Below are positions 461 through 47,219 of a stretch of DNA of 64,000 bases, piece after piece; position 1 is the first letter of the stretch; each line of letters opens with the position of its first letter. Below the pieces are notes generated by a model. It was not told the origin of the DNA. It made no database searches and saw nothing but the letters and a program-made list of their open reading frames with translations. Origin of the DNA: Eledone cirrhosa (Eukaryota); the NCBI GenBank assembly GCA_964016885.1, contig OZ024741.1:104966001-105030000 (forward strand), in the 5' to 3' direction. Both the position numbers and the translations under genes were made by a program.

Positions 461-3400
461 TCAGCTCAAAGCTTCAGTATAGACAATATTCAGGGTTGTT
501 CCTCTGTTAGTGGTATCAATTGCAAATTTTATACCATCAGGATCGCACACTCGAGATGCAGCAACATACAGTTGCCTATGGCTGAATGCTGGATCATTCA
601 AGTAGACACCGACTCGCTTGAAAGTCTGTCCCTGTGTCTTGTTGACAGTCATGGAAAAGGTCAAATTGACGGGAAACTGTCTCCTTTGCCAAACGAATGG
701 CAGCAAATTTCACTTGATCTCAGCATGATCATCGGAATGAGAACCGATTCCTCTCTGCCTGGGAATTTAGCTTCTAAAACTCTTCCGTTAATCAATCTCC
801 CAACAATCAATCTGGTACCATTGCAAAGGTCCATTTTATGATTGATATTTCTAAGCAATATAATCGGCATACCCTTTTACAACCTCAAAATATGTGAGGG
901 TATTTGAAGTGAATTCAGATACTCAGTCGGAACATCCATATCGTTCTGCTGATTAGGCTCCATTGCATCCGCACTGACGGTCAACTATTCCTCTCCAGGA
1001 AACATTCCGACTACTTGTGAATTTGTTTCATCGACCGTTGCATTCGTATGAGTTAGAATAACGCGTTCCGGTATCCAGGAGATATTCTGCCAAAAAGCAT
1101 TCAAATTAGGGAACACCCAGTCAATCAATGCTTGGCGGTCCAGTGGCATGACCAAATGGTCTTGGATTCTTACAGTCTAATTATCACCAACGTGTGGCAA
1201 TTCATCGTTTCTCAACTGCATCAACCATCGGCCGTATGTCTCAGCCTCTTCGTTTTGCTCGAACATACGAAGTCGCATATTATCGTGTAATCGCAAAACT
1301 CTGAAATGGCGTCACAACGGGGACTTTTTCAGACATGCATCGACAATTTGCGCTCTTTGAGCATTCCTAACAATTGGTAGCACCTGTCTGAAATCGCCAC
1401 CAAGAAGGATAGTCTTACCACCGAATGGCAGGTCACTACCGCAGATATCTCTCAAAGTTCTGTCCAATGCCTCCAGCAAATATCTGTGTGCCATTGGAGC
1501 CTCGTCCCAAATAATCAGAGACGTATTGCGTATAAGGCCCGCGAGTTCACTTTGTCCTGTAATGTTACAGACACTCAACTCATCCGGAGCCAATGGAACC
1601 TTGAAGCATGAGTGGAAGGTCCTTCCACCACTCATCAAAGTGGCAGCAATCCCACTGGTGGCCACAGGGAGAGCAATCTTCCTCTGAGCTCTGAGTGCCG
1701 ATAACATAGTGTTGAAACAGAATGTCTTTCCGGTGCCTCCTGGAGCTTCTATGAAAGCACAAAGTTGCTCATTAGTTGCTCAATCGAGTGGAGAATGCCA
1801 TCGACCAATTCTCTCTGAGATTGGGTCAACATTGGTATACGTTCATCCACAATACGTTGCTGTTCCAGTGGATCAAACTGGAATAGTTCCCTCCGATCGA
1901 GTGGCAACCGTCTAAGCTGCAATCTCATGTTCAATGCTAAGACACGTTGCCGCATTTCTTCATCAGGAATTGGCAAATTGAAATCTCTTAAAAATTTGAA
2001 ATGAACTTCAAGCAGTTGCTCAATATTGAGCAAAACAATAGCTTTCATCAAATTTTCATCATCTACCTGAAGATGATGCCTAAAATCACCAGCCATAATT
2101 CCCCAATGGATTTCAAATAACTCTCTTGGATCGGCAGGATTGCAAAATCCTAGAATCGTGACAAACAACTTCCTTATTTGAGCTGGCATCTGTGTTGTTC
2201 CTGCAGCTTCCATGGCGTTATTCCATTCAGCGTCATCCTGAAGGAGTCCCAGATGCTAACACACAGCCTGGTATGTTTCATATTCCACGCCATTGATTGT
2301 TTTCAAATCAGCGAAGCTCTGTTTACCTCTCGAAAAATCATTATGCAACAGAATTCGCAGATAAAACACATCACCAGATGCTGGATGGTAATTACAAACC
2401 CGTCCAATAGCCATGAATCTCAACTTTTGTTTTCTATCATTCGATTTCTTTCCCTTCTTATCCCACGTATAGTGCGAAGGGAAATCACAGTAGTGTTGCC
2501 TTTGATCCGGGTTCAAAGCATGTTCCCTATTATGCTTGAATCACTCAGTCAATTCCGTCATAGGAGGTGGTGCGTTAGCAATTCTTTCGACACCTCTTCT
2601 AGTGTCCTGAAAACAGACCATTTGCCTATTCTCTAAGTGAACCGTGAGTTTCTGAACGCTGGGTTTGCGTTCATTGAGATCAAAATCGAACAATCTCCAG
2701 CAAGCTTCGCTAGATCCAATCGAGCGAACACCCTAGATATTTGCAAGCTTTCACTGAGTTACAAATTTCCACATTAATATGACAACGATATTTCATAATC
2801 AAATATGGATTGTATGGCACAACCCATTTATTTGTAACCTGTCGACCGTTTACATTTTCGACCAAACCGCCATCTGCAGGTGACCGTCTTCTGTATGAGG
2901 GATGAGCATCCCATCGTTCCAGGAAGTTTTCGTGACAAAAGATTTCGGAAAGTGGTTACTGCATTGGCCATTTTTCATGAAAGCGCTTTCCGATTTGCCA
3001 CTCCGCATTGGTTGTGTACCATTGACTTTGCCACCAAATTGCGTAGTGCCTCATTTTCCGGCAGTTCAGCACACACAACGCTGTCGACATCCTCAGTATA
3101 TCTCAGTTTGCAATCTCTATGTAAAATCATCAGCAAATGTGCATGTGGCAATCCTCTTTTTTGGAATTCAATTACGTATGTAAAAGCAACTATAGCTCCA
3201 AATATTCCCTCTTTTCCCACATCATCCATTATCTTTTTCAGATATCCTTTGAATACTCTTGCACAATATCAGGACGGTCCTTTGGCTGTTGTCCTGTCAA
3301 AAGTGAATCCTTAATATCAGTGCATTCAGGATTGCATGTAACCGTTATAAACAAATCTGGCTTTCCAAACTTTCTGACAATAGCCATTGCATCCTGATAG

Positions 3401-5545
3401 CGAATGTTCATATATTTCGGGCCGCCGATGAACGACGATGGCAAAATGATGCGTCGACCAATTTGCTTGTAATTGGCATCATCAGCTGTTATCGCATCCT
3501 GTATATTATTATACAATTCAGCTCTGATATGTTGCTGATGTATAGCTATATAATTTAGCCTTTGATTTTCGATCTTTGCGAATGCCATACAACAGTATTC
3601 CTGGAACAATCTGCTGGCTTGAAATAGGGCATTTCTCTGTTGATTCCTCTCGTTCAAATGGAACGCGTAAAAGTCGCGAATCGAATTATTGTGTTTATTG
3701 CCGCCTCCCTGTTGATGCTGATTCGCATGATCATCTAAATGAACAGACATGTTCCATCCATTTTCGCCTTTTGGGAATAAAATAACATAATGAAATGGAT
3801 CGTATGCCTTATTTGACTCATTGATAGTCTTGAGACCACCATCTCTGCGATTGAGGACGATATCTCTCGATCCAGGCTTATCGTCCATCAACACAGCAAC
3901 TTCACGAAATCCTTCAGGGGCATTATATCACCGTTCGTGTTGATTCCTTGGCACTGCGTCAGCCTTAATCACCAATGTTTGCTGCTGAACATTTTGCAGT
4001 TCAGCCACCAACATGAAATCCATAACATAAGGATTACATTGTCTAAGCCATGATTGCAAATCACGGATCAAATCACTTAACCTTTGCCGTTCAAGTTCAG
4101 TTATATTTCCCGGCAACTTCATCCAACCGATCCTGATATCCTCCTCCGATTCACTATAATCTGGATCGTTAACGTAAATTTGAGCGAATCGAGGCCTCTC
4201 TCCGGGGGTAACTTCTAAATTACCGATACAATGATACAAACGGCCTTGAATGACTACATTGCCATGCTCCACTCTCAAACATCTCACTAACTCTCTGCGA
4301 TGCTAAAGCTAATGAATTGTTCATTTGCCGCGAATATTTGCGCAGTAATCTACCTCGGTCTCCTTGATCACCCCACATACTTAGTATTTTAAACTCCGGT
4401 GACTCCTCATCATCCGGCATTCGCAAGGGTTCTAGTTGAAATACTCCTTTATGACAGCACATTGTGGTCCACATCTTTTCGTGCCTCCAAAGCAATGCTC
4501 CACAATGTGGACACTCTGCTCGTCCACCAATCTGAAAATGACACGGTTGCCATGATCCATTTTTAATATCATCCGTTCGCCTTCTAGCCTCTTTACTGGA
4601 ATGAGGAGCACTTTGGCGACACATTCTCTGGACTTCTGTATTGCGCTGGCGCTGTTCAGCCAGCTCCCCTTCATCCATCGCAGCACACCGTTGCTGCTGC
4701 ATTCCGGCCATCTGCTGATGATGCTCAGCCAGTTCGTCTTCAACATCGCAGCACGCCGTCGCTGCTTGGCCCCAGTGTTTCGTTGGCGTTGTTCAGCCAG
4801 CTCCTCTTCATTCATGGCGGCACGTCTTCGCCTCTGAAGTTCGGCGTTCCGATGGCGCTGTTCGGCCCGTTTTTCTTCATTCCTGGCTGCACGCCGTCGC
4901 CGCTGTAGTTCACTGTTTGATAAAGTCGAATTGCTTTTATCAGTACTCATTTCGAGCAATTGTCAAAAAATGACACAATAATAAATATAAAAGATGTCCG
5001 TCAATGTAAAAAAGGTCTCTATTTACTCCTTTCACAACTCTGTGTATGTTAGACTGACAGACAGGCACACAGACAGATAAACTGCGTGGCGATTGTGGAA
5101 CGCCGCACGTACACACACATACACGCATGGAAACGCGCACACGCACGCAAACTTACACACGCACCCGTGCACTTACACACACACACTCACACATGTTGAT
5201 AGTTTTTACTTTCTGTGGAATGCTGCATGCACACACACATAAACATACGCGCACGTACATACACAGGCACACATGTTAATAGTTATTGCTTTCCTTCCCC
5301 TCTTATTTCCACACACATAACACACACAGATGTCTCTACACTGACACATATACATAGTGTATCCAACACAGCGTTAACTTTGCCTCTGTTTCTTACTCTC
5401 CCCTCTCACTCCCTCATTTGCATTATGCATATTAATTTAAGTTTGGCGTCATTGAGGTGGGCGGAGTAGTTTGAAACCTATGAACCAATGATAATCGAGA
5501 ATTATGACACACGGAATACTGACATTGTTGAAATTAATATATATA
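461..5545 (-). mobile_element. Degraded autonomous-type Helitron (Rep/PIF1-like helicase, frameshifted)
   Basis: Consecutive minus-strand ORF fragments: Zn-finger CPHCGALLW..CCHKG (4220-4711), RFAQIY (3928-4287), Rep motifs GKPDLFITVTCNP (3238-3894) and VIEFQKRGLPHAH (2975-3229), FYLRILL (2256-2516), helicase motifs VATSGIAA/WDEAPM/GGDFRQVLP (1312-1707), LCNGTRL (661-870), QFPV..TVNKTQGQT..QLYVAASRV (461-706). The 5' end is only approximately placed at the TA tract near 5545. Confidence 0.93.
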
Positions 5546-13951: not shown

Positions 13952-13965
13952 GACATATATACATA

Positions 13966-14250
13966 TAAAATAAAGTTAAATAAAAGTCAAATGATTAAAA
14001 TTTAGCTTCGTTTATTACTGCTATATATATTTCAGTGACAGCCATCTTTGGCTGTGACCTCTTCAGGCAGTTTGAATTAGTATGGTATAGACAATATTAT
14101 ACACCTCAACAACATATGTACTTGCCTATACCATACTAATTCAAACTGCCTGAAGAGGTCACAGCCAAAGATGGCTGTCACTGAAATATATATAGCAGTA
14201 ATAAACGAAGCTAAATTTTAATCATTTGATTTTTATTTAACTTTATTTTA
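13966..14250. repeat. Inverted repeat (129 bp arms) carrying an HHR in each arm
   Basis: 13966-14094 is the reverse complement of 14122-14250. Confidence 0.9.
14145..14199 (+). ncRNA. Type I hammerhead ribozyme motif (inverted copy at 14017-14071)
   Basis: actgc CTGAAGA ggtcacagcca aaga tggctgtcact GAAA tatata TA gcagt AATAAA. Confidence 0.82.
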
Positions 14251-14647
14251 CACTACTCCGGAGTAACCAAACCAACCAGCGCACTACGTCGCGTGCTCCA
14301 GCCTGCATACTGAGGTGTTGGTATACAACCAACATAAACTCAAAATCTCTATATATATATATTTCTCTCTCTCTATATATATATATATATAGTAATAATA
14401 ATAAATTTGAAGACTAAAATTCAAAGAGGGCTCGATAAGGATAAATATATATCAAATATACCATAAACGTGGTTCTGTCTTTGCGCGTAATTGTTTTTCA
14501 CCGCTCCTATTAATGACGTATTATATTCGTTTTTTCCCGTTCTTTGCCAGCGAACGTTTCCACGAACCAAAGTATCGTCTTCCTGTCTTGCTCCGGTTGC
14601 AACGTTTTTTGAAATATCCAGTTCTGCGTTTACAGATTGACTTTGTT

Positions 14648-14751: not shown

Positions 14752-14966
14752 CACATAAATATAAGTATGTACACGTACATACATATATGTATACAGACGT
14801 ACAGTAGTATGTATATATATATACATACATGCACACATATATATATGTACGTATGGATTCACCAAACATCCATTACAATGCTCGGTGTGTTTGTAAACAA
14901 ACATCCCGTATTAAGCGGTAGTGTCCAGCAACCATCGTTGCTCGCTTGTTCAACACTGATAAAGGA

Positions 14967-15009
14967 ACGCTGTACTAGTTTCAAGCTTATTAGCTATCGT
15001 CAGCAACGT
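14967..15009 (-). ncRNA. Minimal type I hammerhead ribozyme, unit 1
   Basis: Minus strand: acgttg CTGACGA tagct aata agctt GAAA ctag TA cagcgt. Confidence 0.85.
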
Positions 15010-15394
15010 ATACCTTCCTGCCAGATTGTTGAACGTCTGAAAGTATATACTTTCCCTATGCATATTAACGGCTGAGTCGCCCAATTTGCATATCGAGTGG
15101 GTTAATCGGCTGGGTGCACCGAAAACGTTAAACGGAAAAAATGAAACGATATTTCATTTCCCACTCTTAGTACGGCTGTTACTTAAATATAAGTATGTAC
15201 ACGTACATACATATATGTATACAGACGTACAGTAGTATGTATATATATATACATACATGCACACATATATATATGTACGTATGGATTCACCAAACATCCA
15301 TTACAATGCTCGGTGTGTTTGTAAACAAACATCCCGTATTAAGCCGTAGTGTCCAGCAACCATCGTTGCTCGCTTGTTCAACACTGATAAAGGA

Positions 15395-15437
15395 ACGCTG
15401 TACTAGTTTCAAGCTTATTAGCTATCGTCAGCAACGT
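15395..15437 (-). ncRNA. Minimal type I hammerhead ribozyme, unit 2
   Basis: Identical to 14967-15009, 428 bp away. Confidence 0.85.
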
Positions 15438-15828
15438 ATACCTTCCTGCCAGATTGTTGAACGTCTGAAAGTATATACTTTCCCTATGCATATTAACGGC
15501 TGAGTCGCCCAATTTGCATATCGAGTGGGTTAATCGGCTGGGTGCACCGAAAACGTTAAACGGAAAAAATGAAACGATATTTCATTTCCCACTCTTAGTA
15601 CGGCTGTTACTTAAATATAAGTATGTACACGTACATACATATATGTATACAGACGTACAGTAGTATGTATATATATATACATACATGCACACATATATAT
15701 ATGTACGTATGGATTCACCAAACATCCATTACAATGCTCGGTGTGTTTGTAAACAAACATCCCGTATTAAGCCGTAGTGTCCAGCAACCATCGTTGCTCG
15801 CTTGTTCAACACTGACAAAGGAACGCTA

Positions 15829-15883
<55 letters not shown>

Positions 15884-16000
15884 CACAAATACACATACAC
15901 ACATATATACACATATACATACATACACATATATACACATAAATATATACATATATATGTATATATATATATATATATACACACACATATATACATATAT

Positions 16001-16502
16001 AATTAAATAAGCCAACCACCTCCGAACCCAATCCCCGGACTGGGGCCTTGTGTAATTGCCTAAATAAGGAAGCCTGCCCACTTGAAAACAAATGCCTGAC
16101 AAATAATATCGTTTACAAATGCGATGTCATCTCAGGCACCGATGATTGCAACAACAAAAAGACTTACATCGGCATGACTTCCAATAACTTTAAGACCCGT
16201 TGGTATGCCTATACCCACTCCTTCAGAAGACCGGACAAATCAAACCAGACAACACTCGCCTCCTATGTTTGAGACCTCAAAAGGAATTCCACCCCCTTCA
16301 CGCTTAAATGGAAAATACTCCAGAAGCGCGCTCTTACAACGGAAAACAGAAGTGCTGCGACCTTTGTATCTCAGAGAGCTACGACATTTTATTCGCGAAG
16401 GGCCCGCTACTGAACAAACTCTCTGAACACTGCCCGAACTGCATGCACAAGAACTTTGCAACTTTCAAATACCTTAAGCCAGTGTTAATGCCCGATGGCT
16501 AA
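16001..16502 (+). mobile_element. Penelope-like element C-terminal GIY-YIG endonuclease remnant (Hydra-clade-like)
   Basis: CNC..CPLENKCL..IVYKC..TYIGMTSNNFKTRW..H..F, LASYV*, then after a frameshift CDLC..E..LLNK..E..CMH. Confidence 0.8.
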
Positions 16503-17609: not shown

Positions 17610-18218
17610 GTCAGGTCACCAGTTGGTGCTACTGGTAACATGTATCCCAGTACAACCTGTCTCATGGTCGGGTCGTTGGCGACTAAACTGGCAACCCTAC
17701 CAAGGTTTCTTGGTGAGGAGGGTGACTTTGGACATCCTGCGGGACTAAAAACAAAACCTGTCAAAGGGCAAAGGACCTCTTAAGAGTCAATGGCCATCCA
17801 AAATCACCGGGAGAGATGACCCCCTTACCCTTTGTCAAGGCAGAATTCTAGGAGAAGGAAAACTCTGATATAACACCTGCAACCCTGATGGTATCCAATG
17901 ATGTTGACTTGTTCTTCTTTTTGGTAAATATCATCCTGGTTAAGAGAGTGGGACTGGCTTTGTGCAGTGCCTTTGCTCACTATAAAAGCTTCACGGCACA
18001 GGCATTGCTTTATATCTGGAGATCTCTCTGCACTTGTCGTCACATGGTATCATTGGCCCAGCACTATGTGTCAATAATTGTCACAGGTGTAGTGTTTGTA
18101 CCAGAGTTTAAGTCGCTGGCTGGACTAAAGAGTCACACTCGTTCAGTGCATCGGTAGGGGTTCTCCTACATGGATATAAAGTAGTGGCCGTACTCGAAAA
18201 AGAGTTGGCAGCCACCAT
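17610..18218 (+). mobile_element. ~600 bp non-coding interspersed repeat, copy 1 (RTE 5'UTR-like non-autonomous element)
   Basis: Near-identical copies at 23096, 58744 and 61217 with the same ends (gtcaggtcacc..gcagccaccat), flanked by TA-rich tracts. The motif ctaggagaaggaaaactctg resembles RTE-clade 5' regions (recalled, not searched). Confidence 0.8.
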
Positions 18219-18278
18219 ATATATATGTATGTATATATGTGTATATATATATACATGTATATGCACACATATACGCAC

Positions 18279-18324
<46 letters not shown>

Positions 18325-18349
18325 ATATGTATATGTGTGCGTGTGTGTA

Positions 18350-21300
18350 CAGACGAAGGCGGCCTGAGAACGGTGGATTCACTATGACGTTACGGGGTAA
18401 TCAAGTTGATAATAGGTGGGTGGTCCTGTACTGTCCATTTCTGATGAAAACTTTCAATGCTCATATAAATGTGGAGTTCTGTCATTCAGTGAAGTCGATA
18501 AAGTACATATGTAAATATGTTAACAAGGGTTCCGACGCTGCCATGTTCGGCCTTCAAAACGACAATAGCAGGGACGAGGTCTCGGAGTACTTGGCAGGTC
18601 GATATATCAGCAGTGGTGAAGCTTTTTGGCGGATATTCGGGTTTCCAGTTCACCAAAGGCACCCCGCCATCATACAACTAGCGGTTCATTTGGAAAACGG
18701 CCAGCGGGCTTACTTTACTGAACAGACTGCTGCTCATTTGGCGGCCAATCCAAAAGAAACAACTTTGACTGTTTTTTTTACGCTTTGCCAACTTGACACA
18801 TTTGCAAAACCACTTTCATATCCTCAGGTCCCGTCCTACTACGTGTGGTCAAACAACAATTGGGTGCGTAGGAAGTCAGGTCAGGATGTTGAACGACATC
18901 CTGGTGTCAAGTTTGACAGTTGTCTAGGAAGAGTGTACACTGTACCTCCCAACCAGCATGAGTGTTTTCACCTGCGCCTTCTCCTACATGAGGTTTTTGG
19001 CCCACAAAGCTTTCGAGACATAAGAACTGTTGACGGTGAATTATGTGATACTTTCCAGGAAGCCTGCTTTAGGCGTGGCCTTTTGGAGGATGATTCACAA
19101 TGGGGCTCCACTATGGCAAAGGGCGTTTTGTTGAAATCTCCTAAAAGACTAAAATCGCTTTTCGCTATTCTACTCCTATGGTGCGACTTGTGTGATCCGG
19201 CCTCTTTATGGCTTAGCTACAAAGATTACATGTCTGAAGATTTCCTGCGTTATGCTCAGTTGCTAAACCCATCGATGGAGGTCGGGTACAGTGACCTTAT
19301 TTACAACAGGGCGCTGCTTGAAATCGAAGATACTGTTCTCGATATGGGCGGTAGTGCGTTGGCTGTGTATGGCCTACCTTCAACAAACCGGGAAGGCGCA
19401 AACACTCTGTCTTCGGATTTGCTGCGTGAGACATCTTATAATGTTGACGAGCTTGCCCAGTACATAGCGGAGAATGAACCAAAGCTCCTTCCAGAACAGA
19501 GATTCGCTTACAACTCCGTTGTTAATTCTGTCCGGGGCAAAGCTGGGGGGATTTTTTTCCTGGACGCTCCTGGGGAGACTGGGAAAACTTTTGTCACCAA
19601 ATTAATATTAGCTGATATTAGGCGAACAGAAGGTATTGCCTTAGCTGTGGCATCATCTGGAATTTCGGCTACTTTGTTGCCGGGCGGCAGGACATCTCAC
19701 TCCTATTTCAAGCTCCCGCTTGACTTAGCGAAGACTGAGACACCCACTTGCAACATCAGTAAGAGCTCCGATCAGGCAGAAGTGTTCAGACGATGCAAGC
19801 TTATCGTTTGGGACGAATGCACGATGGCCCACAGAGGTGCTCTTGAGGCGCTCGATAGAACTCTGAGAGACATCAAAGACTCTACGGCTCCAATGGGAGG
19901 CATAACACATCTTCTTTCAGGGGACTTCAGGCAAACGCTTCCCGTTATTCCCAAGGGGACTAGAGCTAATGCAGTACGTGCGTGTCTTAAGTCATCCGCA
20001 TTGTGGCCCCTGGTGAAGACTCTGAAACTACACACTAACATGCGTGCTCATATGCGAGGTGATATCACATCAGCAGCATTTTCTCACACGCCTCCTTGCA
20101 CTTGGCCAAGGCAAAACGCCCGGGGATGAAAAGGGTAATGTTGCCATCGACACACTTTGTACCATTGTTAATACGCCTTCTGATCTCAGGGTTGCAGTGT
20201 TCCCAGATCTCCAAGCAAATTATCAGAATATGGATTGGCTTGCCCAAAGGGCTATTCTGGCCCCGAGGAATAAAACTGTTAACCATATTAATGATCAAAT
20301 GCTAAAACTCATTCCTGGGGATGGCTACGTATATAAGTCTATCGATAGAACTCCTGACACCGAGGACGTCATCAACTATCCAATAGAGGTACTAAATTCC
20401 TTTGAGCGCCCCGGATTACCCCCCCCCCCACACACACACATTTTGAAACTTAAAGTTGGTGCCCCTATAATGCTCATTCGAAATTCGGTTCCGCCGAATG
20501 GCACACGTTTGGTCGTTAAGTCCTTAGCTCCCAATCTGATTGAGGCCACGATAATCACAGGGTGCGGTCGGGGCAAGGTTGTGCTCATACCGAGGATGCA
20601 TCTTTTCCCATCAGGAGCAGACCTTCATTTCATATTTCGGAGGTCCCAGTTCCCGGTCAGGCCATGCTTCGCAATGTCAATTAACAAAGCGCAGGGACAA
20701 ACACTGTCTGTCGCGGGAATACATTTGGGAGAGCCGAGTTTCTCTCATGGTCAGCTTTACGTTGGCTGCTCGCGTGTCGGCAGCAAGAGTGATGAGTTCG
20801 CGTTCTTTCCGCAAGGAAAAACAAAAAAACATTGTGTACAAGGAGGTTTTATAGGATTACCTAGATTACTAATTTTATAACTTTTTTATTTTTTTATTTT
20901 TTGCCTTTTCGTGAGTACTTTCTAAGTAGGTTAACCTTCACTGCAGTGCACTGGACACTATCCACCATCTGCCGTACAAAGGCTGATTCTCGCGGCGTTA
21001 CAAATATCAGCTGTTGCTCCTCACCAATCCCTGTTTGGTGGGCCTCGGAGGACCGTGGACAGGTTAGTATTTCACCTCCGTACGACTCTCAAGGGGTCAA
21101 CAATGCTTTAATGACGGGATTTACATTTTTAGGCGGTTCCCTGCAATTACTTCACACTTCACCAACACCTGGCCTCCGCTCAGCTCTATTTCCCTCCCTC
21201 CGTCGGCACAGCAGCAGGCTCATCTTCTACGTCCGACGTACATGATGCACCAACCATACAATGACCCATCTTCCTCTTTTTTGGTTGTCATAATTCGACA

Positions 21301-25627: not shown

Positions 25628-27360
25628 AGAGTATTGAAGTTTGCTTGAAGCATTGTGGAATAATAAGTAAATATCTTTAAGTCGTTTGAAAGCCTCGACA
25701 ATGCAAATGATTAAATCTCCGAGTAACCAGATCCGGTGGTGGAGAGAGAGATGTAAGTGGGTGTACGTTGAGATGCGTGGTGTGTATGAGATGTGTAGAA
25801 GAATGAAGGAAAGAGTATAAAGGATAAAATAAAATAACAACACGAGAGAGAGTTACCTTGGGAGAGATTTAATAGTCCCTATATATTTCGGATTCACATC
25901 CATCAACTGGGGGTTTTTCCGGGGTGGGGAAAGGTTGTCTGTCGGACAAGTGCGAAACGCGTCCTCCGCTGTTTGTTGTTTTGAATATCTGAGGTATTCG
26001 GCAGAGCGCGCGTGCGCATGAAATGGGGTCGGTCGGGCAGAGGTCAGCGGCCGAATGAGGGAGTGGGGTGACGCTAGCTGTCAGTCCATTCTCTGCCTGT
26101 TTGTTAAATGTTACTGTGTGTGTGTGTGCGTGTGTTGTTGTCTCGCTTGAGTGTGTGTGTGTGTGCGTGTGTTGTTGCCTTGTTCCTCTGTATTGGCAGT
26201 GTAGTATGTTCGTATGGTGGAATGCTACTGTGTGTGTGTGCGTGTGTGTGTGTAGTTGTCTCGTTTGTGTGTGTGTGTGTGCGTGTGTTGCTGCATCGTG
26301 TGTTAGCTTAAACCAGCCATCTCATTTCGCTTCTCTCTGATCGGTTGTTTATTTGCGGTTGCAGTCGTTTGATAAAAAGCGCTTCCTTGATACATAACGT
26401 GCCGACGTTTCTTTCAGTCGCTAGAATTGTGACAATGGGCCTTCCGTCTTTGTTTCCGCATTTGTCTATGTGTTTCCGGAAAGACGAGGCCCTGGTTTTG
26501 GTGTGTTCCTTGATCCGGATGTGCAAAGGTCGGATTGTGCTACCTATGTAGTATTGGTTGCACCTGTCACATTCTATCTTATACACGACGTATGTGCGTA
26601 GGCAACAGTTCGCATGGCGTATCGGGCAGTCTCTGAGGGAGCATACGTCAGTAGATTTCCCGTGTTTCCTGGAGAGGCATCTTCGCAGGGAGGGGCCCGA
26701 GTGGGCCAGGTGGATGTCGAGGCCCTCCCTCCGTATAGCCTTGCGGATAGCGTTGGTGGTATTCTCGCCCAGGTGTGGCATTTTAAGGAAGCACTTGCCT
26801 TGGGTGCCTCTCTGTCTCTTGCGTCTGGTGTCTCCTATTCTGTCTGTGATCGAGGTAGGGTACCCGTTCGTCTCCAGCACCTCGAGGAATCGCTTGGTAT
26901 GAGTGACACCACTCGCGGGATCGCTGCATCTGTTTTTGATTCGCGCGATCTCGTTCGTGATGTATCCTCTTTTGGCACTGTTAGGGATGGTGGACTTGTA
27001 GTGAACGAACAGGTCCCTGCAGGCTGCCTTTCGGTAGAAGTTGCAGTGGATCCTTCCCTGTTCCGTGATGTTGATTCGGAATTCGAGGAGGGCAAGTGAC
27101 CCGTCTTCGTTGGGGTGTTCAACACTGAAGTCAATGTTCTCGTCCGTGTTGTTGAACGTCTCATAGATTCTGTTCGCCGTGTCTTGGGAAGATGTGAGGA
27201 TGAGGATATCGTCCACGTACCTTGAGAAAAAGGCTACGGCGTTGGGGTGGCAGGCGTTGAGTGCCTTGCGTTCGAGGTTGTCCATGTAAGAGATCGCTAG
27301 CACACCTGATAGGCTTGATCCCATGGGCAATCCGTCGTGCTGTTTTAGCCATAAGATAAC
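25626..27360 (-). mobile_element. Penelope-like element 3' half (RT C-terminal part, thumb, GIY-YIG) with 3' UTR
   Basis: ORF 26308-27456: GLPMGSSLS, RYVDD, VVYKIECDRCNQYYIGSTIRPLHIRIKEH, KEALFI..PQIN. The N-terminal residues of the ORF come from the adjacent SINE. Confidence 0.92.
25876..25913 (-). ncRNA. Degenerate hammerhead motif in the PLE 3' region
   Basis: Minus strand: ccc CAGTTGA t ggat gtga atcc GAAA tata TA ggg; two core substitutions. Confidence 0.45.
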
Positions 27361-27374
27361 GCCATCCCTGGGCG

Positions 27375-27528
27375 GGCAGGCTGGTACTCTTTCTACAGCT
27401 GAGTAAACTGGAGCAACGCGAAATAAAGTGTCTTGCTCAAGGAAACAACACATCACCCGGTCCGAGAATTGAACTCACAACCTTTCGATTGCAAGCCCAA
27501 TGCTCTAACCACTAAGCCATGCGCCTTC
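27375..27528 (-). mobile_element. tRNA-derived CORE-type SINE fragment
   Basis: Minus strand: gaaggcgcatggcttagtggttagagc (A box), gagttcaattc (B box), ccttgagcaagacact (CORE-like). Confidence 0.78.
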
Positions 27529-30715: not shown

Positions 30716-31639
30716 CAATAATTCACAATACTATAAGGCCTATGAGGCCTTAGCTAAATCAGGACATAAGAATGAGATTGAATTCCTACCTATAAAATCA
30801 CATAGTTACAACATTATTTCTCATAATATGGCCATGAGGAAAATAGTAAAAACACTAGCCACTATAACTCTAAGACGAAGATTAATACCAAACTTAACTC
30901 GCACCAAAGTAAACACCACAATAATAATTTAAACACCACAAAGTAAACACCACAATAATAATTTAAATACCTCAAAAAACAATATTATAAACAAAAAATA
31001 GAAGGAGAACTAATACATTCTTCAATCCCCCTTTCAATCTAAACGTCTCTACCAACTTGCCTAAGGCTTTCTTCTCAATCTTAGAAAAAAACTTCCCGAC
31101 CGGCCACAAGTATCAATAAAAATACAATTAAAATATTGTACTCCACCACACCCACCATAGCATACCATATAGCTAGTAGTAATAAAAGGAAGATTAATAA
31201 CTATTTCCAACTAATTAAAACACAACAGGAGGTAAACGTAGTATCTGTAAACAATAGTAGTAATAATAGTAATAATGATAATAGCACTAATGAAATCAAT
31301 AACAATACGAATGATAGGAATCATTACCCTACTTCGAACAACTTCAAGACGAGATACAACTCGCACCTCCACTCTTTCAAAAAGCACAATCTAGCTAGCA
31401 ACACTTCTTTATCTAGCTGCATACACTCTCTGAAAACTAGGAATAGACCATTTACACTGCAATGGGAAGTAGTAGGTAGGGCCTCATCGTATAAACCACC
31501 GAATAAATTGTGTAATCTCTGCCTTCTGGAGACCCATACTATAATCTTTTCGAAACTAGACCTCCTTAATAGAAAGTCAGAGACATTTTCTTCGTGCCAA
31601 TACCGACACTCGTTCCATAACTTTAAACCTAGCTGTTAG
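30715..31639 (+). mobile_element. Penelope-like element remnant (thumb plus GIY-YIG C-terminus, Hydra-clade-like, internally deleted)
   Basis: FNPPFNLNVSTN near 31021; TSNNFKTRYNSH..F..TSLS..W..SY..CNLCLLE..LLNRKSE..C in ORF 31136-31639. Confidence 0.78.
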
Positions 31640-34730: not shown

Positions 34731-35247
34731 TACAAAAGTGAGTTACAAACGAAACGAAATTTAATTTCGTTTCGTTATTTGTTTTTATCGTCTCCGTTGA
34801 ACCGGTACGTACTCACGCTCTATGCAAATTAGTCTGCCCACTACTAATTTTCATAGAAAAAGCATATAACGATATGTGCTTTTACGATTCTCTAGAGAGG
34901 CCGGAAGATAGGTAAATATTGCTGATGAGATGTAACAACATCGAAACTAGTTCAATATTCCTTGCCTGGCTTTCTGGAGAATAGAGGAAAGGTGTTTCCT
35001 CAAAAACCAGTATGACTCTAAAAACCGGTTTGTCTGTGTGTTTACATACAGAATAGCTGGACACTCACAGTAAAGTGACCAGTGAAAAACTCGGTACATC
35101 TACATATGTATACGTGTGTGTATTCATATGCATACTAGTATTTCAGTATACATATGTGGATGTACATTTTTAACTTAATTGTTTAAGCGTCAGTCATACA
35201 AAAGTGAGTTACAAACGAAACGAAATTTAATTTCGTTTCGTTATTTG

Positions 35248-35254
<7 letters not shown>
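34731..35254 (+). mobile_element. 466 bp HHR element monomer with ~58 bp terminal redundancy
   Basis: tacaaaagtgagttacaaacgaaacg.. at 34731 and 35197; same family as 12376-13187; (TA)n flanks. Confidence 0.85.
34915..34959 (+). ncRNA. Minimal hammerhead ribozyme (GUU triplet)
   Basis: aatattg CTGATGA gatgt aaca acatc GAAA ctag TT caatatt. Confidence 0.82.
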
Positions 35255-35340
<86 letters not shown>

Positions 35341-35447: not shown

Positions 35448-38400
35448 TGTTTCTTTTATTTGCCACCAGGGCATCAAAAGTGGGACAAGTACAATGGGGG
35501 GAGTTTACAAAACAAGGCGTCCTCAATAAGGAGGAGGCAATAACAATATATAAAAATAGAATAAAATATAACAAAAGATAAAATTTATAACAAAGTCCTC
35601 AATAGAGAGGAGGCGCCTTGGGGGGTCGCACACACCCCCGAAAAAAGTGTGCAACCCTTCTCCTCAGGAGCACAGAGAAGGGGTGCTCCCTTGGTCTTTC
35701 ATCTTCCTCACCTATAGTCTGATGTAGAGTGAAGGCCCATTCACACGGGCCATTCTCGCCACTTTCACCCATCTTTCATAGAAACGGCTGGGGTGCAGCA
35801 CCTCTCTCTCCATCCTGATCCTTCTTCCGAAATGATATCGGAAGAAACGGACCAGTTGTTGGCCAGAGAGAAAGGTGTCTGACCTCAGTCCTTTCAGACG
35901 CGTCCACCATACAACCTCTTTCGCCATGGCTATTACGCACAGAAACACCGCCTCTCCTTCGTTTTTGAAGAGGGGAGGCGGCTTGATCGTTACAATAGAC
36001 TCGGTGGTCAACCGGATCGGTCCCACCTTTGACAGCAGTTGTTCGACATAGCCCCACAGATCGGCAATGCCCGAGCAGTGTACCAATGCGTGTGCAACGG
36101 TTTCCTCGTCGCACACGCATCTGGGACAGATCTTTTTCGATGGGTCCCTACCCGGGCGCCCGTGTCTGTAGAGCCTTTCTCGAACGGGCAGAGCCCTTCT
36201 GTAGCATTGCCAGGCCAGGGACCTCTGGAAGTTATCCATGGGTCCCGGGCTGAATGTCCTACCGAACAGGTTGGCCAGTTCGTCTTCCTCCATGCCTAGG
36301 GCTTCTCCGAGGGCGTCGTCGCACCTACTAACCACCAGCCCTCTATAGAATGACGAGGTGGATTCTCCACTGACAGCCGGGTCAGCCTGCCAGGCGCCCA
36401 GTTTTCTCGGTCTTTGCTTGACCCAGGATTGCAGCTCGGTGAGTGAGACGAGTCTGGGAAAGGCTCGCCTCACAAACGGGGCCCACACCGGTTGACCGGA
36501 GAGGAATACCTGAAGGTGCCGTAGCCTTAATGCGTGTTTACGTATCATTAGCCACGGTATCCCCAGCCCTCCTTTCGAAGGGTGTTGACAGCAGATGGAT
36601 CTCCTCACCATAGGAGCCCGCTTCTTCCAAAGGAATTGGAAGAGTGCGCGCTCCATTTTGGCGAGCGTTTCCCTTGGGCAAGGCACAACGGTCAGGCGGT
36701 AGTAGATGACGGACGCTATATAAGTGTTCGCCACCTCCGCCCGACCTTTCAGGGACAGTTTGCACTCGGCCCACTTCTGGGTCAGTGCAAACACCCTGTT
36801 CGTCACCTCACCCCAGTTCTTCTCCACCTGGAGGTCTGGTCCGAACCAGACCCCGAGCAACTTCACCGGGGTCTCCGTCCAGCGCTCGACGACGCCATCG
36901 GAGGGCATCGATCTGCCCCTCCACGTGCCGAGTTGCAGACCGATCGACTTGTCCCGGTTCAGCTTAGCCCCTGTAAACCTTTCGTACTCCTCCAGTAAGG
37001 TGCCGATCGCCCCGATTTCCGAGGCCGTCGACACCATTACTGTTACGTCATCGGCGTAGGCTGACACCGCTTTCCGCAATCCCGGTTCCAACGGGATGCC
37101 CTGCAACAACTCCAACTTCCGCAGCAGTGGCTCTAGAGTCATTACATACAGAAGGGAGGAGAGAGGGCACCCCTGTCGGATGGACCGCGCGATTTCGAAC
37201 GGCTCCGAGAGGTAGCCGTTCACCTTGACCCTAGAGCAGATGCGGCTGCTGTGCATGGCATTGATCCAGCCCCTGAAAACGGGTCCGAAGCCTGCCGCCG
37301 CTAGCACCGCATCCAGGTAACCATGGTCGACCCTATCGAATGCCTTAGATTGATCCAAGTTTATCAGGGCCCCACCAAAGCCGGGTTCGTTCCCAACCCT
37401 CTCTATGATGTATCGCATGAGGTGGAGGTTATCGTGGATGGACCTGGACGGGATAGCACATGTCTGCGCATCTCCCACCAGGTTGCCCACGACAAGCGCC
37501 AACCTCTTTGCTAGCACCTTGGCCAAAATCTGTAACTCTGTATTTAGCAGAGTTATGGGCCTGAAATTATTTATATCGTCCCCCTTGTTCTCGTCCTTCC
37601 TCACTAGCGTGACTACGCCCTTGATCACAGCACAGGGAATTCTCCCGTTCTGTTGCCAGTTGCAGTAGACCGCCTCGAGGAGATCGGGGAACAAGTCCGG
37701 CATAGCTAGATATAGTTCGTATGGAAGACCATCGAGACCCGGGGATTTGCGTTTGCCGCATTGGCTCAGCACGTTCTCTATCTCAGCGGCTGAAATCGGC
37801 TCCTCGCAGGACTTCGCCTCCCTGTCCGAGAGACGCGGCAGGCCGTCGAGGTATGGACCGAAGTCGACGTCCCCAACCGGCCCCCCGCCCCTTCCGAACA
37901 ATCCGGCAAAGTGCTTTTGAAAAGCCTCGCACATCTGCTTAGGTTCAAGGATCACCCGTCCATCCTGGTCTCGCAAAGACCGGATAGTGGATCTGCTCCC
38001 TCTTTTGGCTTCTGTCACGCGGGCCCAGCTAACAGCTTTGGTCCCCTCGTTTCCCAGAGCACGTATTTTGCTTCGGACGATGGAGCCTTCGTGTTTCGCG
38101 TCGAAGAACTGGCCCAGGGCCGTTCTCGATGCTAGCACTCTGGCCACGTCGCCGCTTCTAATTGCCTCTTCTACACTATCTACCAACTCCCTTTCCTTCC
38201 TATTTCTATTGGAGGCTAACTCCTTACTAAATTCTATAGAGACTACTCTAATCTCTCTTTTGAGAGATCCCCACCACCTGCTGTTGACGATGGCGCCCGT
38301 CAACCGCTCCTTAACTAAAGTGCTAATCCGGTCCCTGTAAGCCTTACTTGCCGGTAAGGACAAGTTGAGCTTCCAGTAACCGGGTCCCTGTCTATGAGTT

Positions 38401-38709
38401 CTGTCAAGGTTGATCATGCAGGTCACTAACTTGTGTTCTGAATAGCCAACCATGCGCATTTTTGGACAACTTAAAAAGTCCTTATCCTTAATTCTAACTA
38501 AGAACCTATATAGGTACGACCTAGATGATCCGCTACGATTTGCCCAAGTCCAGGTTGGCGCAGTCGGAAAATCTAGTCGATATCTATCGGCCAGGTCAAA
38601 TCGACCGATTAACCCTTTGAGGCTATTACACCCCTCTCTATCGCGACAGGCCCCTACGTAATCCCAGCGTGCATCTAGGATACCATTCCAGTCCCCCACT
38701 AATAGCAAG
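35447..38709 (-). mobile_element. Tx1/L1-clade LINE, 5'-truncated, ORF2 open (APE C-terminus, RT, cysteine-rich C-terminus)
   Basis: ORF 35712-38834: GDWN, WKLN, KSPGLDG, FRPITLLN, DQSKAFDRVDH, RQGCPLS, YADD, CPRC..ETVAHALVHC. 3' AATAAA; (GATA)n on both sides. Confidence 0.95.
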
Positions 38710-38787
38710 GAGATAGATAGATAGATAGATAGATGGATAGATAGATAGATAGATAGATAGATGGATAGATAGATAGATAGATAGATA

Positions 38788-39541
38788 TATTTCTTTATTA
38801 GCCACAGGGGCACAAAAGAAGGGGACAAATACAAAGGGGGAAGTTTACATACAATAAAAACGTGTAAAATGTTATCACAGATGGAATTTAAAAGTTAGTC
38901 GATTTTCCCCAATAGAGGGAGACAGTTTATATGGGTAACACAGACCCCCGAAAAAAATGTGCAACCCTCATCTCCAGGAGTACGAAGAGCTTGTACTCCT
39001 TTCCTCTCCTCCTCCTTTTCCTCAACCTACAGGCTGATATAGAGAGAAGGCCCATTCACTCGGGCCATTCTCGCCACTTTCACCCACCTTTCATAAAACT
39101 TGCTGGGGTACAGCACCTCTCTCTCCATCCTGATTCTTCTTCCAAAGTGGTATTTGAAAAAAAGAATCAGTTGTTGGCCGGAGAGAAAGGTGTCTGACCT
39201 CAGCCCTTTCAACCTTGTCCACCATACAACCTCTTTCGCCATAGCTATCACACAAAGGAAAACCGCCTCTCCTTCGTTTTTGAAGGAGGGTGGCGGTTTG
39301 ATCATGACAATGGACTCGGTGGTCAACTGGATTGGTCCCACCCGCGACAATAGTCGTTCCACATAGCCCCACAGGTCAGTGACGCCCGGGCAGTGTATGA
39401 ATGCGTGCGCGACGGTTTCTTCGTCTCGCACGCACCTCCGACAGATCTTTTTTGCAGGGTCCCTGCCCGGGCGCCCATGTCTGTAGAGCTTGTCTCGAAC
39501 TGGTAGAGCTCCTCGGTAGCACTGCCAGGCCAGGGACTTTT
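38788..39541 (-). mobile_element. Second, shorter 3' fragment of the same Tx1/L1 family
   Basis: ORF 39027-39629 matches the C-terminus of 35712-38834; (GATA)n flanks. Confidence 0.92.
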
Positions 39542-39542
39542 G

Positions 39543-39579
<37 letters not shown>

Positions 39580-39583
<4 letters not shown>

Positions 39584-40865
39584 GGAACCGTAAATAAACT
39601 GACACCAGTAAATAACGATATATTGACACATTAATATAAATTTAATTTATTTATGTACTAAATCAAAACAAATCCTAGTATTTCGTAAAAGTTTCCTTAA
39701 AAGTGATAAATATAAAATAATGTATTGATGTTTATGAAAATACTTGATAAACTCTGTAAAGATATTTAGATAAGGAACCTTAAATTAACTGACACCGCTA
39801 AAAAACGATATTTTCAAAATGCTCGTGAATGAACCCATTTGAAATGCACCAGTTGCATAAAATTACTTTTACTCAAGAACCTGATTAGAAAAATAACATT
39901 AGTCAACCATTTTTGAAACGTTGTGTGCTTCTTAAATGAGATTATTTAATTCTTACGTATGTCCTGAATCCAATTATTACCTTGATAAATGCTTATTAGC
40001 TGTAGGCTTAAAGATACATCACATGTAATATTTGATTATTTTATTATAATGTATAATATGTGTGATGATGTTTTAAGCTCTAGTCCGTATGTACTCTCTG
40101 CCTTTTTGCTTGACACTTATAGTGGGCTGAAAAATCATCTCTTGTCCATGTCCAGCAATAGTTTGCAAGTATTTTTGTGCTCCATTTGCCCTGGTACCGC
40201 TTTTCCATAGCTGAAATATCTTGGTGAAACCTATCACCATGTTCATCAGTGAGAGGTGGCTGTTGAACATTTTTCATCTCAAGCTCTAATGATTGATGCG
40301 GTGATCAGTCTCTCCTAAGATAGTGAGAACCTCTTGCACGGCTGTCCCATTCACACAGACAGTAACTGTACTTGGTGTATCTGCTCTGCAAGCCCATCAA
40401 AAGAGCAATAACCTTTAAGTCACCACAGAGCTGCCATTGATGCTCATCATATTTTATGCATTACAACATATGCTTTATATTCTCTCATAAGTTTCTTTCA
40501 TGTGTGATGCATAGCCCACAAGAACTGATGGTTCACTATTGTCATTATGCCGCAAGCCACATTTCAGACTAGTTTTTGATGAATCTATGAACAGCCTCCA
40601 GTGACTAAGTTCGTATTCAATATTAAGTGCTTCCATCAGACCATTAATATTGTTACAGGCCAATAAATTACCTTCCATTATGAAAAGATTGCTGAACGGC
40701 TGCTGACGGTCACGAAATTTTGAAATCTTCAAATCAGCTGTTATGAGATTCCACTGTTGAAGACGAGAGCCTAGCAGCTCTCCTTTATTTTTAGATAGTT
40801 GTAGATCCCTGACAAGGCCATGGAGTTTCCCTTGTGTTATGAGATGTGGTCTAGAGGAGTGTGCT
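39580..40865 (-). mobile_element. DNA transposon remnant, Chapaev3-like (CMC) transposase fragments
   Basis: PHLITQG..LVRDLQLSKNKGELLGSRLQQWNL (~40745-40850), WRLFIDSSKTSLK (40475-40732), EHGDRFHQDISAMEKRYQGKW..YCW (40080-40277). Family name is from recall. Confidence 0.65.
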
Positions 40866-40889: not shown

Positions 40890-42100
40890 GGAAAATAAAA
40901 TTAATACAAAATGGCTCTCATGCATTGGGCTTATGAAAAGGGTAATAAAAGCCAGAGTTTAAGTTTAACGTAACATCAAGAAAATTAACTATTTTGGTAC
41001 CACTTTATACTTCTAACTTAAGGTCATACATTTTAAAGAATTCTATTATACTTTTCTTTACTCTATTTAGTTCAATATTGTTGTGTTTGACCACCGTAAA
41101 TAAAATGTCGTCCCTATATAAGCCACCGGTAATCTCCGGCAGTTTTCTATTTATCATATTTAATATGAAAATCCCCAGAAAATCTGTGATTTGCGCTGAA
41201 TCAGATGCCCCCATAGTGATATCAAAGTTTCTATTTCTACCTGAGCGGGTCCAATAATCTTTTTGAAGTTAATAAGAGTTCTTCTAGCTGTTAGTATGAT
41301 ATGAATTTCATCCGTTGTTAGATCAGTATGCTTATAAGCATATGAAAGTGCCTTATTTAGTAGGTTGGGCGTTATGGAAGAATAATAGCTTGTTATGTCC
41401 ATCTGGATGAATTTATGGTTTTTCTTATTATCTATATTCTTATACCATTCTATGACTTCTTTTGTATCTTTCCACAAGCTCAATTTAGATCTCAATTTAA
41501 GAGCAGGTAGAATTCTATCGATAATGTTTTTACTGATTACTCCAATATCCGATTTGGATGGAACAATCAGTCTAATTGGCAGGTCTTCCTCGAAGTTTCT
41601 TTTGTGATCTTTTAAGTTAATCCGCGGCTGCCTAGGTATAAGTGGCTCAGTTCTTCCTTCTATTCCTAAATTGGTAATTAATTTATATGCATCCTCATTA
41701 ATTTCTGTAAGATCTTCAGCCGGGGCATTTTTATAGTTTTTCCTAAGTTCCTTTAAAATCAAGTTATTATATTCTTCTTTGTTTATCCCATATAAATTAT
41801 TTGTTTTGTCCGATTTAAACAATATTTTGTTAACTTTTTTATTTCTGTGATTTTTTTCTTTTAGAGTTCTAAGGTATTGGTGACCTATATATGGGTTTTT
41901 CCTAAATTTAATTTTTTTAAGTATACCAAGCATTTCGGTTTCAAAATCCTCCAGGAGTTTGTTGTATGGAGGATTCTTTCTTGATTTAAATAAAGATTCG
42001 AAATGATTGCTGTTGGTTTTTCTATCAGCATCTTTATTTTCGAAATGATATGCTCCCCATTGTTATACTTTAGACACTATAACTATTTAACAATAAATTC
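40890..42100 (-). mobile_element. Penelope-like element RT remnant (Hydra-clade-like)
   Basis: KSDKTNNLY, LKDHKRNF..RLIVPSKSDIG, FIQMDITSYYSSI (41160-41933); MGASDSAQITDFLG..GGLYRDD (41005-41214). Confidence 0.82.
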
Positions 42101-46100: not shown

Positions 46101-47219
46101 GGCTGGGCATGCCGTGGCTGATGATGCGCAGACACGCGCTCAGGCTACGACATCTCCACCTCTTCCTCAACGGTGATCAGGTGTGGTCGCCGTTTGCTAG
46201 ACGCGTCTTTCTCCAGCTCGTCTCCTTGACGGAGCTGCAGTCCTGGGTCAAGCGAAGACCGAGAGGGAGCGCTTGGAGACTGGACTGTCTTCAGGCGCTC
46301 ACAGCCATCGACCAATCGGTCAATGTGATCGGTGGAAACTCCACCTTGGCGTTCTATAGAGGATTAGTGGAGGGGAAGAGCGACGACGTACTTGGGGAAA
46401 CTCTAGGCGTCGACGAAAATCAACTAGCCAATCTCTTCGGAAGAACTTTCGGGCCGGGCCCTATAGACAACTTCCAGAAATCCCTGGCCTGGCAGTGTTA
46501 CCGAGGAGCTTTGCCAGTTCGGGATAAACTCTACAGGCATGGAGGTGCCGTCAGCCGGGCGTGTCCGAAATGCGCGCAAGGCGACGAAACTGTCCTGCAC
46601 GCACTCGTCCAGTGTCCGAGCATTGATGACTTGTGGGTTTATGTCGAACACCTGCTGTCGCGTGTAGGACGGATCCGGCTATCAGCTGAGTCCATCGTGA
46701 GGATTGCCCCGCCCTCTTCCTTTAGCCGGGAAGGGCAGGCAGTTTTTATCTGTCTAGGGGCCATGGCGAAAGAGATAGTATGGTGGACGCGTTTGAAAGG
46801 GCTGAAGACGAGCACTTACCCCTTCGGTGATGCCCTGATTAACTTTTTCAAATTTCATCTGAAAAGGAAAATCAGGGTAGAGAGGGAAGTGCTCTCTTCC
46901 CAGCATTTTGTTGAAAGATGGGTGAGAGAAGCAAGTATGGCCCGAATGAATGGGCCTTCTCTGAGTATGTGTCTGTAAATTAAAGGTGGAAAACTGGGAG
47001 AGGGCACTTGCCCTGGTGGTCAGGGCCACTGTGGTCTTTTAATGGGCTCTCCACAAATGTCCCTCGGAAGTCTCCCCCATATTGGGGAATTTTTCTTTGT
47101 TATTTTATTTCATCCTCTGTTTTTTTTACACGCAGAAATGCCCATTTGTACTGTCCTGTATTGTCCTGTACTGTCCTTAATGTCTACTTTATGTAAACCC
47201 TTGTGGTTAATAAAGAAAA

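What the first reader, a model, noticed from the sequence alone, without database searches (positions are those of the whole stretch)
14756..15833. 428 bp tandem HHR array whose boundary falls at the ribozyme cleavage site
Seen: 2.5 near-identical 428 bp units, each full unit with a minus-strand HHR (ctag TA^cagcgt). The third unit stops at gaacgctatacta (15821-15833) and passes into (TA)n, so on the minus strand the array begins within about 5 nt of the predicted scissile bond. Inference: the template was a self-cleaved RNA, either a multimer or a circularised monomer copied by rolling-circle reverse transcription, as proposed for retrozymes. The unit has no coding capacity.
Basis: partly seen in the sequence, partly recalled or inferred. 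Interest (0 to 1): 0.82.

Follow-up and report, generated by a model that had tools for sequence, protein, structure and literature searches.

The report
Retrozyme copies with shared editing scars
This is one insertion of a protein-less repeat, present about ten thousand times in this animal genome, that carries a predicted self-cutting RNA motif; its start near the predicted cut site is likely chance, but its units repeat the same A-to-G changes, likely RNA-editing scars, as would happen if a Penelope-type jumping-gene enzyme copied round and round one small RNA circle.

Summary
The array is real: 2.5 units of 428 bp, three differences, two whole minimal type I hammerheads on the minus strand. 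It belongs to a family of at least 9,500 units. The highlighted boundary is not a family trait: 4 of 230 copy starts lie within 6 nt of the predicted cut (6.4 expected), and this copy keeps GTA upstream of it. The fixed ends are the 3' ends, at two sites 59 nt apart, joined to (TA)n. Of 44 classifiable head-to-head pairs, 42 have one short and one long end, the Penelope-like 'tail' footprint. Some copies carry strand-specific A>G clusters with ADAR-like neighbours (29 pattern matches, mirror control 1). In such copies 20 of 28 A>G changes are shared by all passes of one arm, against 3 of 53 other changes; the window's units share six. Best reading: a non-LTR retrozyme (known kind) copied by a Penelope-type enzyme from a likely circular, sometimes edited RNA. 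Cleavage, expression, circle and partner element are untested or not found. Long arrays also grew at DNA level. The scan noted this family's two ends, and editing marks in sister families, on other DNA before.

The parts
14756..15833 (-). Single-arm insertion of the 420-428-nt hammerhead retrozyme family, 2.5 units (q424 to q214-217; q1 = first base after the predicted cut)
15401..15828 (-). Unit A (q1-428); differs from unit B at q1 and q13
14973..15400 (-). Unit B (q1-428); like unit C at q1 and q13, like unit A at q56; predicted circular monomer
14756..14972 (-). Unit C, partial, ending at the family's short 3' end (q214-217) into TA-rich flank; inferred start of reverse transcription
15395..15437 (-). 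Minimal type I hammerhead 1: 6-bp stem I, conserved core, 4-bp stem II under a U-U mismatch, palindromic 2-bp stem III; predicted cut 15401|15400
14967..15009 (-). Minimal type I hammerhead 2, identical; predicted cut 14973|14972
15823..15833 (-). 5' junction: (TA)n joined to q424; only the last five bases of the third hammerhead and its 3' stem I strand (C>T at q1) are present
15128..15186 (-). 59-nt 'tail' (q215-273) between the family's two fixed 3' ends, with a hairpin shared with the 467-bp sister family; second copy at 15556-15614
15184..15290 (-). TA-rich long hairpin (q111-217), part of the unit in all family members, ending at the short 3' end
15484..15801 (-). Six A>G changes against the family majority (15801, 15782, 15732, 15727, 15726, 15484 = q28, 47, 97, 102, 103, 345), repeated in every unit that covers them; likely A-to-I editing scars (q47 and q97 are also common family variants)
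15834..16001 (.). (TA)n microsatellite, target on the 5' side

Best explanation
The array is one insertion of a protein-less hammerhead repeat family (a non-LTR retrozyme) whose copies end at two fixed 3' sites in (TA)n, start anywhere, and were likely written into DNA by a Penelope-type reverse transcriptase running more than once round a predicted circular RNA monomer. Shown: family size, fixed 3' ends at q214 and q273, scattered 5' ends, head-to-head pairs with one short and one long end, strand-specific A>G clusters, and sharing of those changes between successive passes. Inferred: a locus with two hammerheads is transcribed, cuts itself (probably as a dimer, stem III being a 2-bp palindrome) and is ligated to a circle; ADAR edits some molecules; a PLE RT-endonuclease cuts (TA)n and primes inside the RNA at q214 and/or q273, one site per DNA end; synthesis stops at random, giving single arms or two arms joined head to head. 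The window copy is a single arm primed at q214 on an edited template. It was at least 1.5 units long at birth; the middle unit may have been added later by unequal crossover. Its start 5 nt from the cut is chance, helped by TA microhomology.
For: Family: 9,513 exact matches to an 18-mer, 0 for the reversed control. 3' ends: 181 of 230 in two classes (81 at q273, 57 at q214), 152 of those 181 followed by TA repeat; the same two ends appear as loose ends in contigs of public runs X1 and X6. Pairs: 42 of 44 classifiable head-to-head pairs have one short and one long end, p about 6e-11; one pair is counted twice through a local duplication. This matches the two internal RT start sites that define the PLE tail (PMC11167929, parts 1-2 of 4 read) and the tail at one end of inverted PLE insertions (PMC3846280, PMC8557442, passages). 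RNA intermediate: L162 has 38 A>G and no T>C on the RNA strand; double A>G pattern 29 matches against 1 for the mirror T>C pattern; in 20 selected segments other A>G 48 of 543 against T>C 1 of 428 and background 27 of 5,412; all 48 have A or U 5' of them, p=5e-4 for lack of G. Repeated copying: within arms 20 of 28 A>G shared by all passes against 3 of 53 other changes (p=8e-10); without the window and two amplified arrays 7 of 14 against 1 of 29 (p=7e-4). L242, an aged two-armed copy, shares 9 of 12 A>G and 0 of 12 other changes between its arms and passes. The cut-site junction is seamless: of 14 imperfect cases in the first 100 matches 12 are point changes, 1 a deletion inside the ribozyme, 1 a start at q424.
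Against: No RNA, cleavage or circle data. No autonomous PLE with a matching pLTR was found in 36 and 30 loci of two PLE families. L214 has different A>G sets in its two passes, and 8 of 28 within-arm A>G are unshared. Several shared sites (102, 103, 390, 392) are recurrent hot spots that could be edited in each unit of a linear transcript. Edited copies were chosen by pattern, sites are not independent, and the loci are not a random sample. In unselected copies rare variants are seldom shared (10 of 7,964 sites against 224 differences), so most copies carry no information on the template. A few two-armed insertions have arms of different subfamilies (S88, S76, S43), so not every insertion comes from one molecule. 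Long arrays show higher-order repeats, i.e. DNA-level growth. The U-U mismatch at the base of stem II may weaken cleavage (own knowledge), and 8 of 9 Xenopus dimers did not cleave in vitro (10.64898/2026.07.22.740005).
Confidence: 0.68

Rival explanations
1. Same PLE-driven retrozyme, but the template is a linear, uncut tandem transcript; shared A>G marks come from hot spots edited in every unit of one heavily edited molecule, or from a donor array already homogenised.
For: In vitro PLE insertion does not need ribozyme cleavage and uses unprocessed RNA (PMC11167929). L214 passes differ. Same sites recur on different subfamily backgrounds. Homogeneous long arrays exist as possible donors.
Against: Non-hot-spot changes are shared too (q24 in L243, q345 in the window); edit sets are specific to each insertion rather than forming multi-locus haplotypes (7 loci with 390G+392G); the 8 unshared A>G are near what 50 other unshared changes imply as later mutation (A>G is 74 of 747 private changes).
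Confidence: 0.2
2. One reading: the template was a self-cleaved linear RNA and this array's 5' boundary is its cut end.
For: The start is 5 nt from the predicted bond; read from q2, only a G in the TA flank needs to be a coincidence.
Against: 4 of 230 starts within 6 nt, 6.4 expected; none of the first 100 matches starts at q1; two other starts at q424 are microhomology switches; GTA upstream of the bond is present.
Confidence: 0.06
3. The tandem is purely a DNA-level duplication of an old copy, or an assembly artefact, and says nothing about the RNA template.
For: Unit B is C-like at q13 and A-like at q56, as one unequal crossover would give. The units are about 3% from the family majority but 99.5% alike. 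Higher-order repeats in long arrays.
Against: A crossover needs a pre-existing 1.5-unit insertion, whose first and last parts would have aged independently, yet A and C share q28, 47, 97, 102, 103 and 109. Aged copies such as L243 and L242 share A>G but not ordinary mutations. The three units are all distinguishable. It plausibly explains the extra middle unit only.
Confidence: 0.06

Closest known systems
Metazoan non-LTR retrozymes (Cervera and de la Pena 2020, PMC7229834; passages seen)
   Same: Non-coding tandem units of 150-450 bp, each with a type I hammerhead, thousands of copies, low GC, PLEs in the same genome; the short stem III recalls the axolotl motifs that cleave better as dimers.
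   Different: The passages seen propose PLEs as mobilisers and mention editing only as a possible cause of RNA heterogeneity; they do not report fixed 3' ends, two-armed insertions or editing marks fixed in genomic copies. Expression and circles, shown there, are untested here.
Non-LTR retrozymes as PLE derivatives (Li, Clavereau, Pollet 2026, 10.64898/2026.07.22.740005; parts 1-3 of 5 read, supplements not seen)
   Same: Non-autonomous, PLE-linked, monomers to long multimers, later growth by unequal crossover.
   Different: Their link is co-occurrence and pLTR homology in vertebrates; here the link is the insertion footprint, and no homologous pLTR was found.
EN+ Penelope-like elements: Poseidon PAc (PMC11167929, parts 1-2 of 4), Adineta Penelope (PMC3846280, passages), Naiad/Chlamys and non-autonomous MRC1 (PMC8557442, passages)
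   Same: Two internal RT start sites with a tail between them, AT-rich or (TA)n targets, 5' truncation, inverted 5'-truncated arm with the tail at one end, minimal hammerhead.
   Different: No ORF; the whole element is a circularly permuted 428-nt unit; the tail is 59 nt rather than 30-40; both arms can be multi-unit.

Membership tests
Non-LTR retrozyme | Type I hammerhead in each unit | tested here: met
   Motif; compensatory stem I and II changes against the sister family; within the family pair q395:q3 is U-G 505, A-U 13, G-U 8, non-pair 16 of 542 motif matches in overlapping loci. No Rfam hit.
Non-LTR retrozyme | Tandem units of 150-450 bp, dispersed, multicopy | tested here: met
   Units of 420-428 bp; 9,513 matches on many contigs.
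Non-LTR retrozyme | No coding capacity | tested here: met
   No frame of 120 codons or more within the array except a TA-derived reading at 15599-16006.
Non-LTR retrozyme | No LTR, PBS or PPT | not tested
   No LTR architecture seen in 131 regions; PBS and PPT were not searched.
Non-LTR retrozyme | Self-cleavage in vitro | not testable with these tools
   Bench test; the predicted lowest-energy fold forms stems I and II but mispairs the core.
Non-LTR retrozyme | Expressed as linear and circular RNA | not testable with these tools
   Only indirect: A>G marks imply an RNA stage.
PLE-mobilised element | Two fixed 3' ends separated by a tail | tested here: met
   181 of 230 ends at q207-218 or q261-273.
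PLE-mobilised element | 5' truncation with inverted arm, tail at one end | tested here: met
   71 head-to-head pairs; 42 of 44 classifiable are short plus long.
PLE-mobilised element | AT-rich or microsatellite target | tested here: met
   152 of 181 fixed ends are followed by TA repeat.
PLE-mobilised element | Homology to the pLTR of an autonomous PLE | tested here: inconclusive
   None in loci of two PLE families; other families not examined.
Autonomous PLE | RT plus GIY-YIG ORF | tested here: not met
   No ORF; the GIY-YIG-type remnant at 16003-16502 is on the other strand, beyond (TA)n, and belongs to a separate family.

The most novel reading that the evidence does not exclude
This family is a genomic record of rolling-circle, target-primed reverse transcription: a Penelope RT dimer loads one ADAR-edited RNA circle, primes at two fixed sites from the two ends of a (TA)n break, and each subunit runs round the circle, so editing marks act as molecule barcodes repeated in every unit and in both inverted arms, and ADAR editing feeds heritable variation back into the element.
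Probability: 0.5. Interest if true: 0.8.

Novelty: new member of a known kind. Interest (0 to 1): 0.6.

Why it matters
How animal retrozymes get into DNA is proposed but not shown in the papers read: PLE enzymes and circular templates are the candidates. This family gives two readable footprints: the short-plus-long end rule, which ties it to PLE internal priming and suggests one start site per DNA end, and editing marks repeated pass after pass, which can separate a circle from a linear multimer by genome statistics alone. It names the exact RNA and start sites for an in vitro test. The feature first flagged, the boundary at the cut, is ordinary chance.

Tried and rejected
Rfam: nothing at gathering score, only TA-hairpin miRNA-type noise to E=5. 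Local hammerhead folds are not more stable than shuffles (z 0.12 and -1.07); the unit's z of -8.4 is probably driven by the TA hairpin and was not used as evidence. A constrained energy for the hammerhead fold failed through a wrong bracket string and was not repeated. Shared rare variants in unselected copies had little power. General strand asymmetry in private changes (A>G 74 vs T>C 35, but also G>T 74 vs C>A 33) could be transcription- or RT-linked and was not taken as proof of editing. Partner search: neighbouring PLE family (45,080 candidates, open frames to 811 codons) and a second family (11,352 candidates) show no pLTR homology; PLE fragments next to L192 and L216 do not lead into retrozyme-like ends. 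Sequencing runs: no RNA holder listed; the contigs laid cannot span the tandem. Target-site duplications were not scored because flanks are TA repeat. Promoter elements were not examined. Literature: 'retrozyme'+'cephalopod' gave one listed paper, on PLEs; 'retrozyme'+'editing'+'ADAR' one unrelated review; two searches on genomic A-to-G edited retroelements gave nothing on point in the listings. Bioarchive supplements and subscription journals were not seen. A sequence look-up in earlier findings returned nothing.

Full report
Numbering. q is the position in the 428-nt unit read on the minus strand; q1 is the first base after the predicted cut (15400 in the middle unit).

Observation. The array lies at 14756-15833 with period 428 and 2.5 copies; the units differ at three places. 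Two whole hammerhead motifs sit on the minus strand (cores at 15431 and 15003): 6-bp stem I, conserved core, short stem II closed by a U-U mismatch, 2-bp palindromic stem III, GUA triplet. Rfam does not detect them and local folding is not better than shuffles. The structure is supported by covariation: a 467-bp family in the same window (about 34734-35255) aligns along the whole unit (score 320 against at most 122 in 30 shuffles) with compensatory changes in stems I and II, and an older subfamily swaps U-G for A-U or G-U in stem I. The array starts at q424 after (TA)n, with GTA before the bond and C>T at q1.

The family. An 18-mer at q2-19 matches 9,513 times, reversed control 0; 7,843 of these run on perfectly for 11 nt across the cut. 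Of the first 100 matches 14 do not: 12 point changes, one deletion inside the ribozyme, one start at q424. I mapped 261 runs in 131 merged regions, taken from best BLAST hits, a minor-allele pattern, four long arrays and the first 100 matches on contig 1, so not a random sample. After dropping three regions (a complex array, an array with both ends outside, a duplicate) and runs under 40 nt, 230 5' ends and 230 3' ends remained. 5' ends are spread over the unit; 4 of 230, the window's included, lie within 6 nt of the cut against 6.4 expected. 3' ends are fixed: 99 at q261-273, 82 at q207-218, 49 elsewhere; 152 of the 181 continue into TA repeat. Contigs of runs X1 and X6 show loose TA ends at the same two places. 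Of 71 head-to-head pairs, 44 have both ends classifiable: 42 short plus long, 2 long plus long, none short plus short (one pair counted twice by a local duplication).

What that footprint is. A purified Poseidon PLE protein cuts AT-rich DNA on both strands, starts reverse transcription at two internal RNA sites, is predicted to be a dimer, and the stretch between the two sites is the genomic 'tail'; ribozyme cleavage was not needed (PMC11167929). Inverted PLE insertions often carry the tail at one end only (PMC3846280; PMC8557442). The family therefore works like a non-autonomous PLE. The enzyme was not identified: two abundant PLE families, one with a remnant at 16003-16502, have no matching terminal repeat.

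Editing marks. The window's units differ from the family majority at 12-13 sites outside the TA hairpin, six of them A>G on the RNA strand and none T>C, and each is present in every unit that covers it. Looking for that haplotype found 11 matches at 8 loci, among them L162 with 38 A>G and no T>C. A pattern that demands two A>G in the ribozyme gives 29 matches; its mirror with two T>C gives 1. In 20 such segments the other adenosines are changed in 48 of 543 cases against 27 of 5,412 in unselected copies, T>C in 1 of 428, and all 48 follow A or U, the neighbour preference of ADAR (own knowledge). The window's six also follow A or U. These are most simply A-to-I edits fixed by reverse transcription.

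Circle or line. If one edited circle is copied several times, its edits repeat in each pass while later mutations do not. Among 20 edited insertions of the main subfamily, 12 arms had 20 or more doubly covered sites: 20 of 28 A>G were shared by all passes against 3 of 53 other changes; leaving out the window and two amplified arrays, 7 of 14 against 1 of 29. Counting both arms, over 16 of 32 insertions examined (old subfamily and low overlap left out), 30 of 46 against 4 of 98. L243 repeats q24, 390 and 392 but none of five ordinary mutations; L242 shares 9 of 12 A>G across two inverted arms and none of 12 other changes; a 6.8-unit array on contig 2 repeats seven non-polymorphic A>G with one private change. 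Against: L214 has different sets in its two passes; several shared sites are hot spots; unselected copies are uninformative (10 shared rare variants in 7,964 sites); some two-armed insertions mix subfamilies. The seamless cut-site junction speaks against end-to-end template jumps. I put the circle at about two in three.

DNA-level growth. Long arrays show higher-order repeats, e.g. an aged dimer amplified on contig 1, so unit number alone says nothing about the RNA. In the window, unit B matches C at q13 and A at q56, as one unequal crossover in a 1.5-unit insertion would give; three independent mutations with one reversion are the alternative. Either way the first and last units share their marks, which a crossover does not explain.

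Comparison and novelty. The element fits the non-LTR retrozymes of PMC7229834 (passages), and a 2026 preprint already argues that these are non-autonomous PLE derivatives, from co-occurrence and pLTR homology. It is a new member of a known kind; cleavage and circular RNA, the defining bench features, are untested. The end rule and the repeated editing marks were not found in the texts read or the searches. The host is an animal with a 3.0-Gb assembly; earlier scan notes call it a cephalopod, which I did not test. After my reading was fixed I saw that the scan had noted the same two ends 59 bases apart for the 422-nt form and repeated editing marks in sister families; these are unchecked AI notes and are not counted as support.

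Verdict. Observation partly confirmed, highlighted boundary rejected, retrozyme and rolling-circle reading supported on different grounds. Interest 0.6.

Noticed in passing
window 13963-14345: A second, unrelated hammerhead family as a head-to-head pair (cores at 14150 on + and 14066 on -), with about 90 extra bases after the right arm only: the same one-sided tail pattern.
   Followed up: partly
window 34734-35255 and about 12395: 467-bp sister retrozyme family, homologous along the whole unit, same tail hairpin and equivalent long 3' end into (TA)n; gives the covariation for the ribozyme stems.
   Followed up: partly
window 16003-16502 (+): Broken 3' remnant of a very abundant young PLE family (45,080 candidates; open frames of 759-811 codons at L274-L276) with a Cys-rich motif before the nuclease part; no hammerhead matched my pattern in its terminal repeat.
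   Followed up: partly
window 26308-27474 (-), 31085-31639 (+), 41160-42062 (-): Further PLE fragments; the first has RT and GIY-YIG matches in Pfam.
   Followed up: partly
L162 1335-1768 (G000:C2:338918795-338919228): Hypermutated copy with 38 A>G and no T>C on the RNA strand, including the ribozyme core.
   Followed up: yes
L145 (G000:C1:49584000-49588400): Ten-unit arm made of an aged 420+422 dimer amplified as a higher-order repeat.
   Followed up: yes
L097-L098 (G000:C12:20402000-20418000) and L093-L094 (C4:351897000-351914000): Arrays of 16-17 kb or more, one with a complex higher-order unit containing truncated monomers: the family is turning into satellite DNA.
   Followed up: no
L051-L053 region set, e.g. 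L050 (G000:C2:16321971-16324994) and L042: Two-armed insertions whose arms differ at 8-10 subfamily-diagnostic sites, suggesting two different RNAs in one insertion event.
   Followed up: no
L254, L260, L309: A third hammerhead-like motif with a long stem II, in inverted pairs next to PLE fragments.
   Followed up: no
window 1312-4962 (-) and 18180-20880 (+): Broken Helitron-like Rep/helicase frames (label recalled from the motifs, not tested).
   Followed up: no
window 35712-39641 (-) and 43341-46978 (+): Non-LTR retrotransposon frames with endonuclease and RT motifs, one open for 1,060 codons (label recalled, not tested).
   Followed up: no
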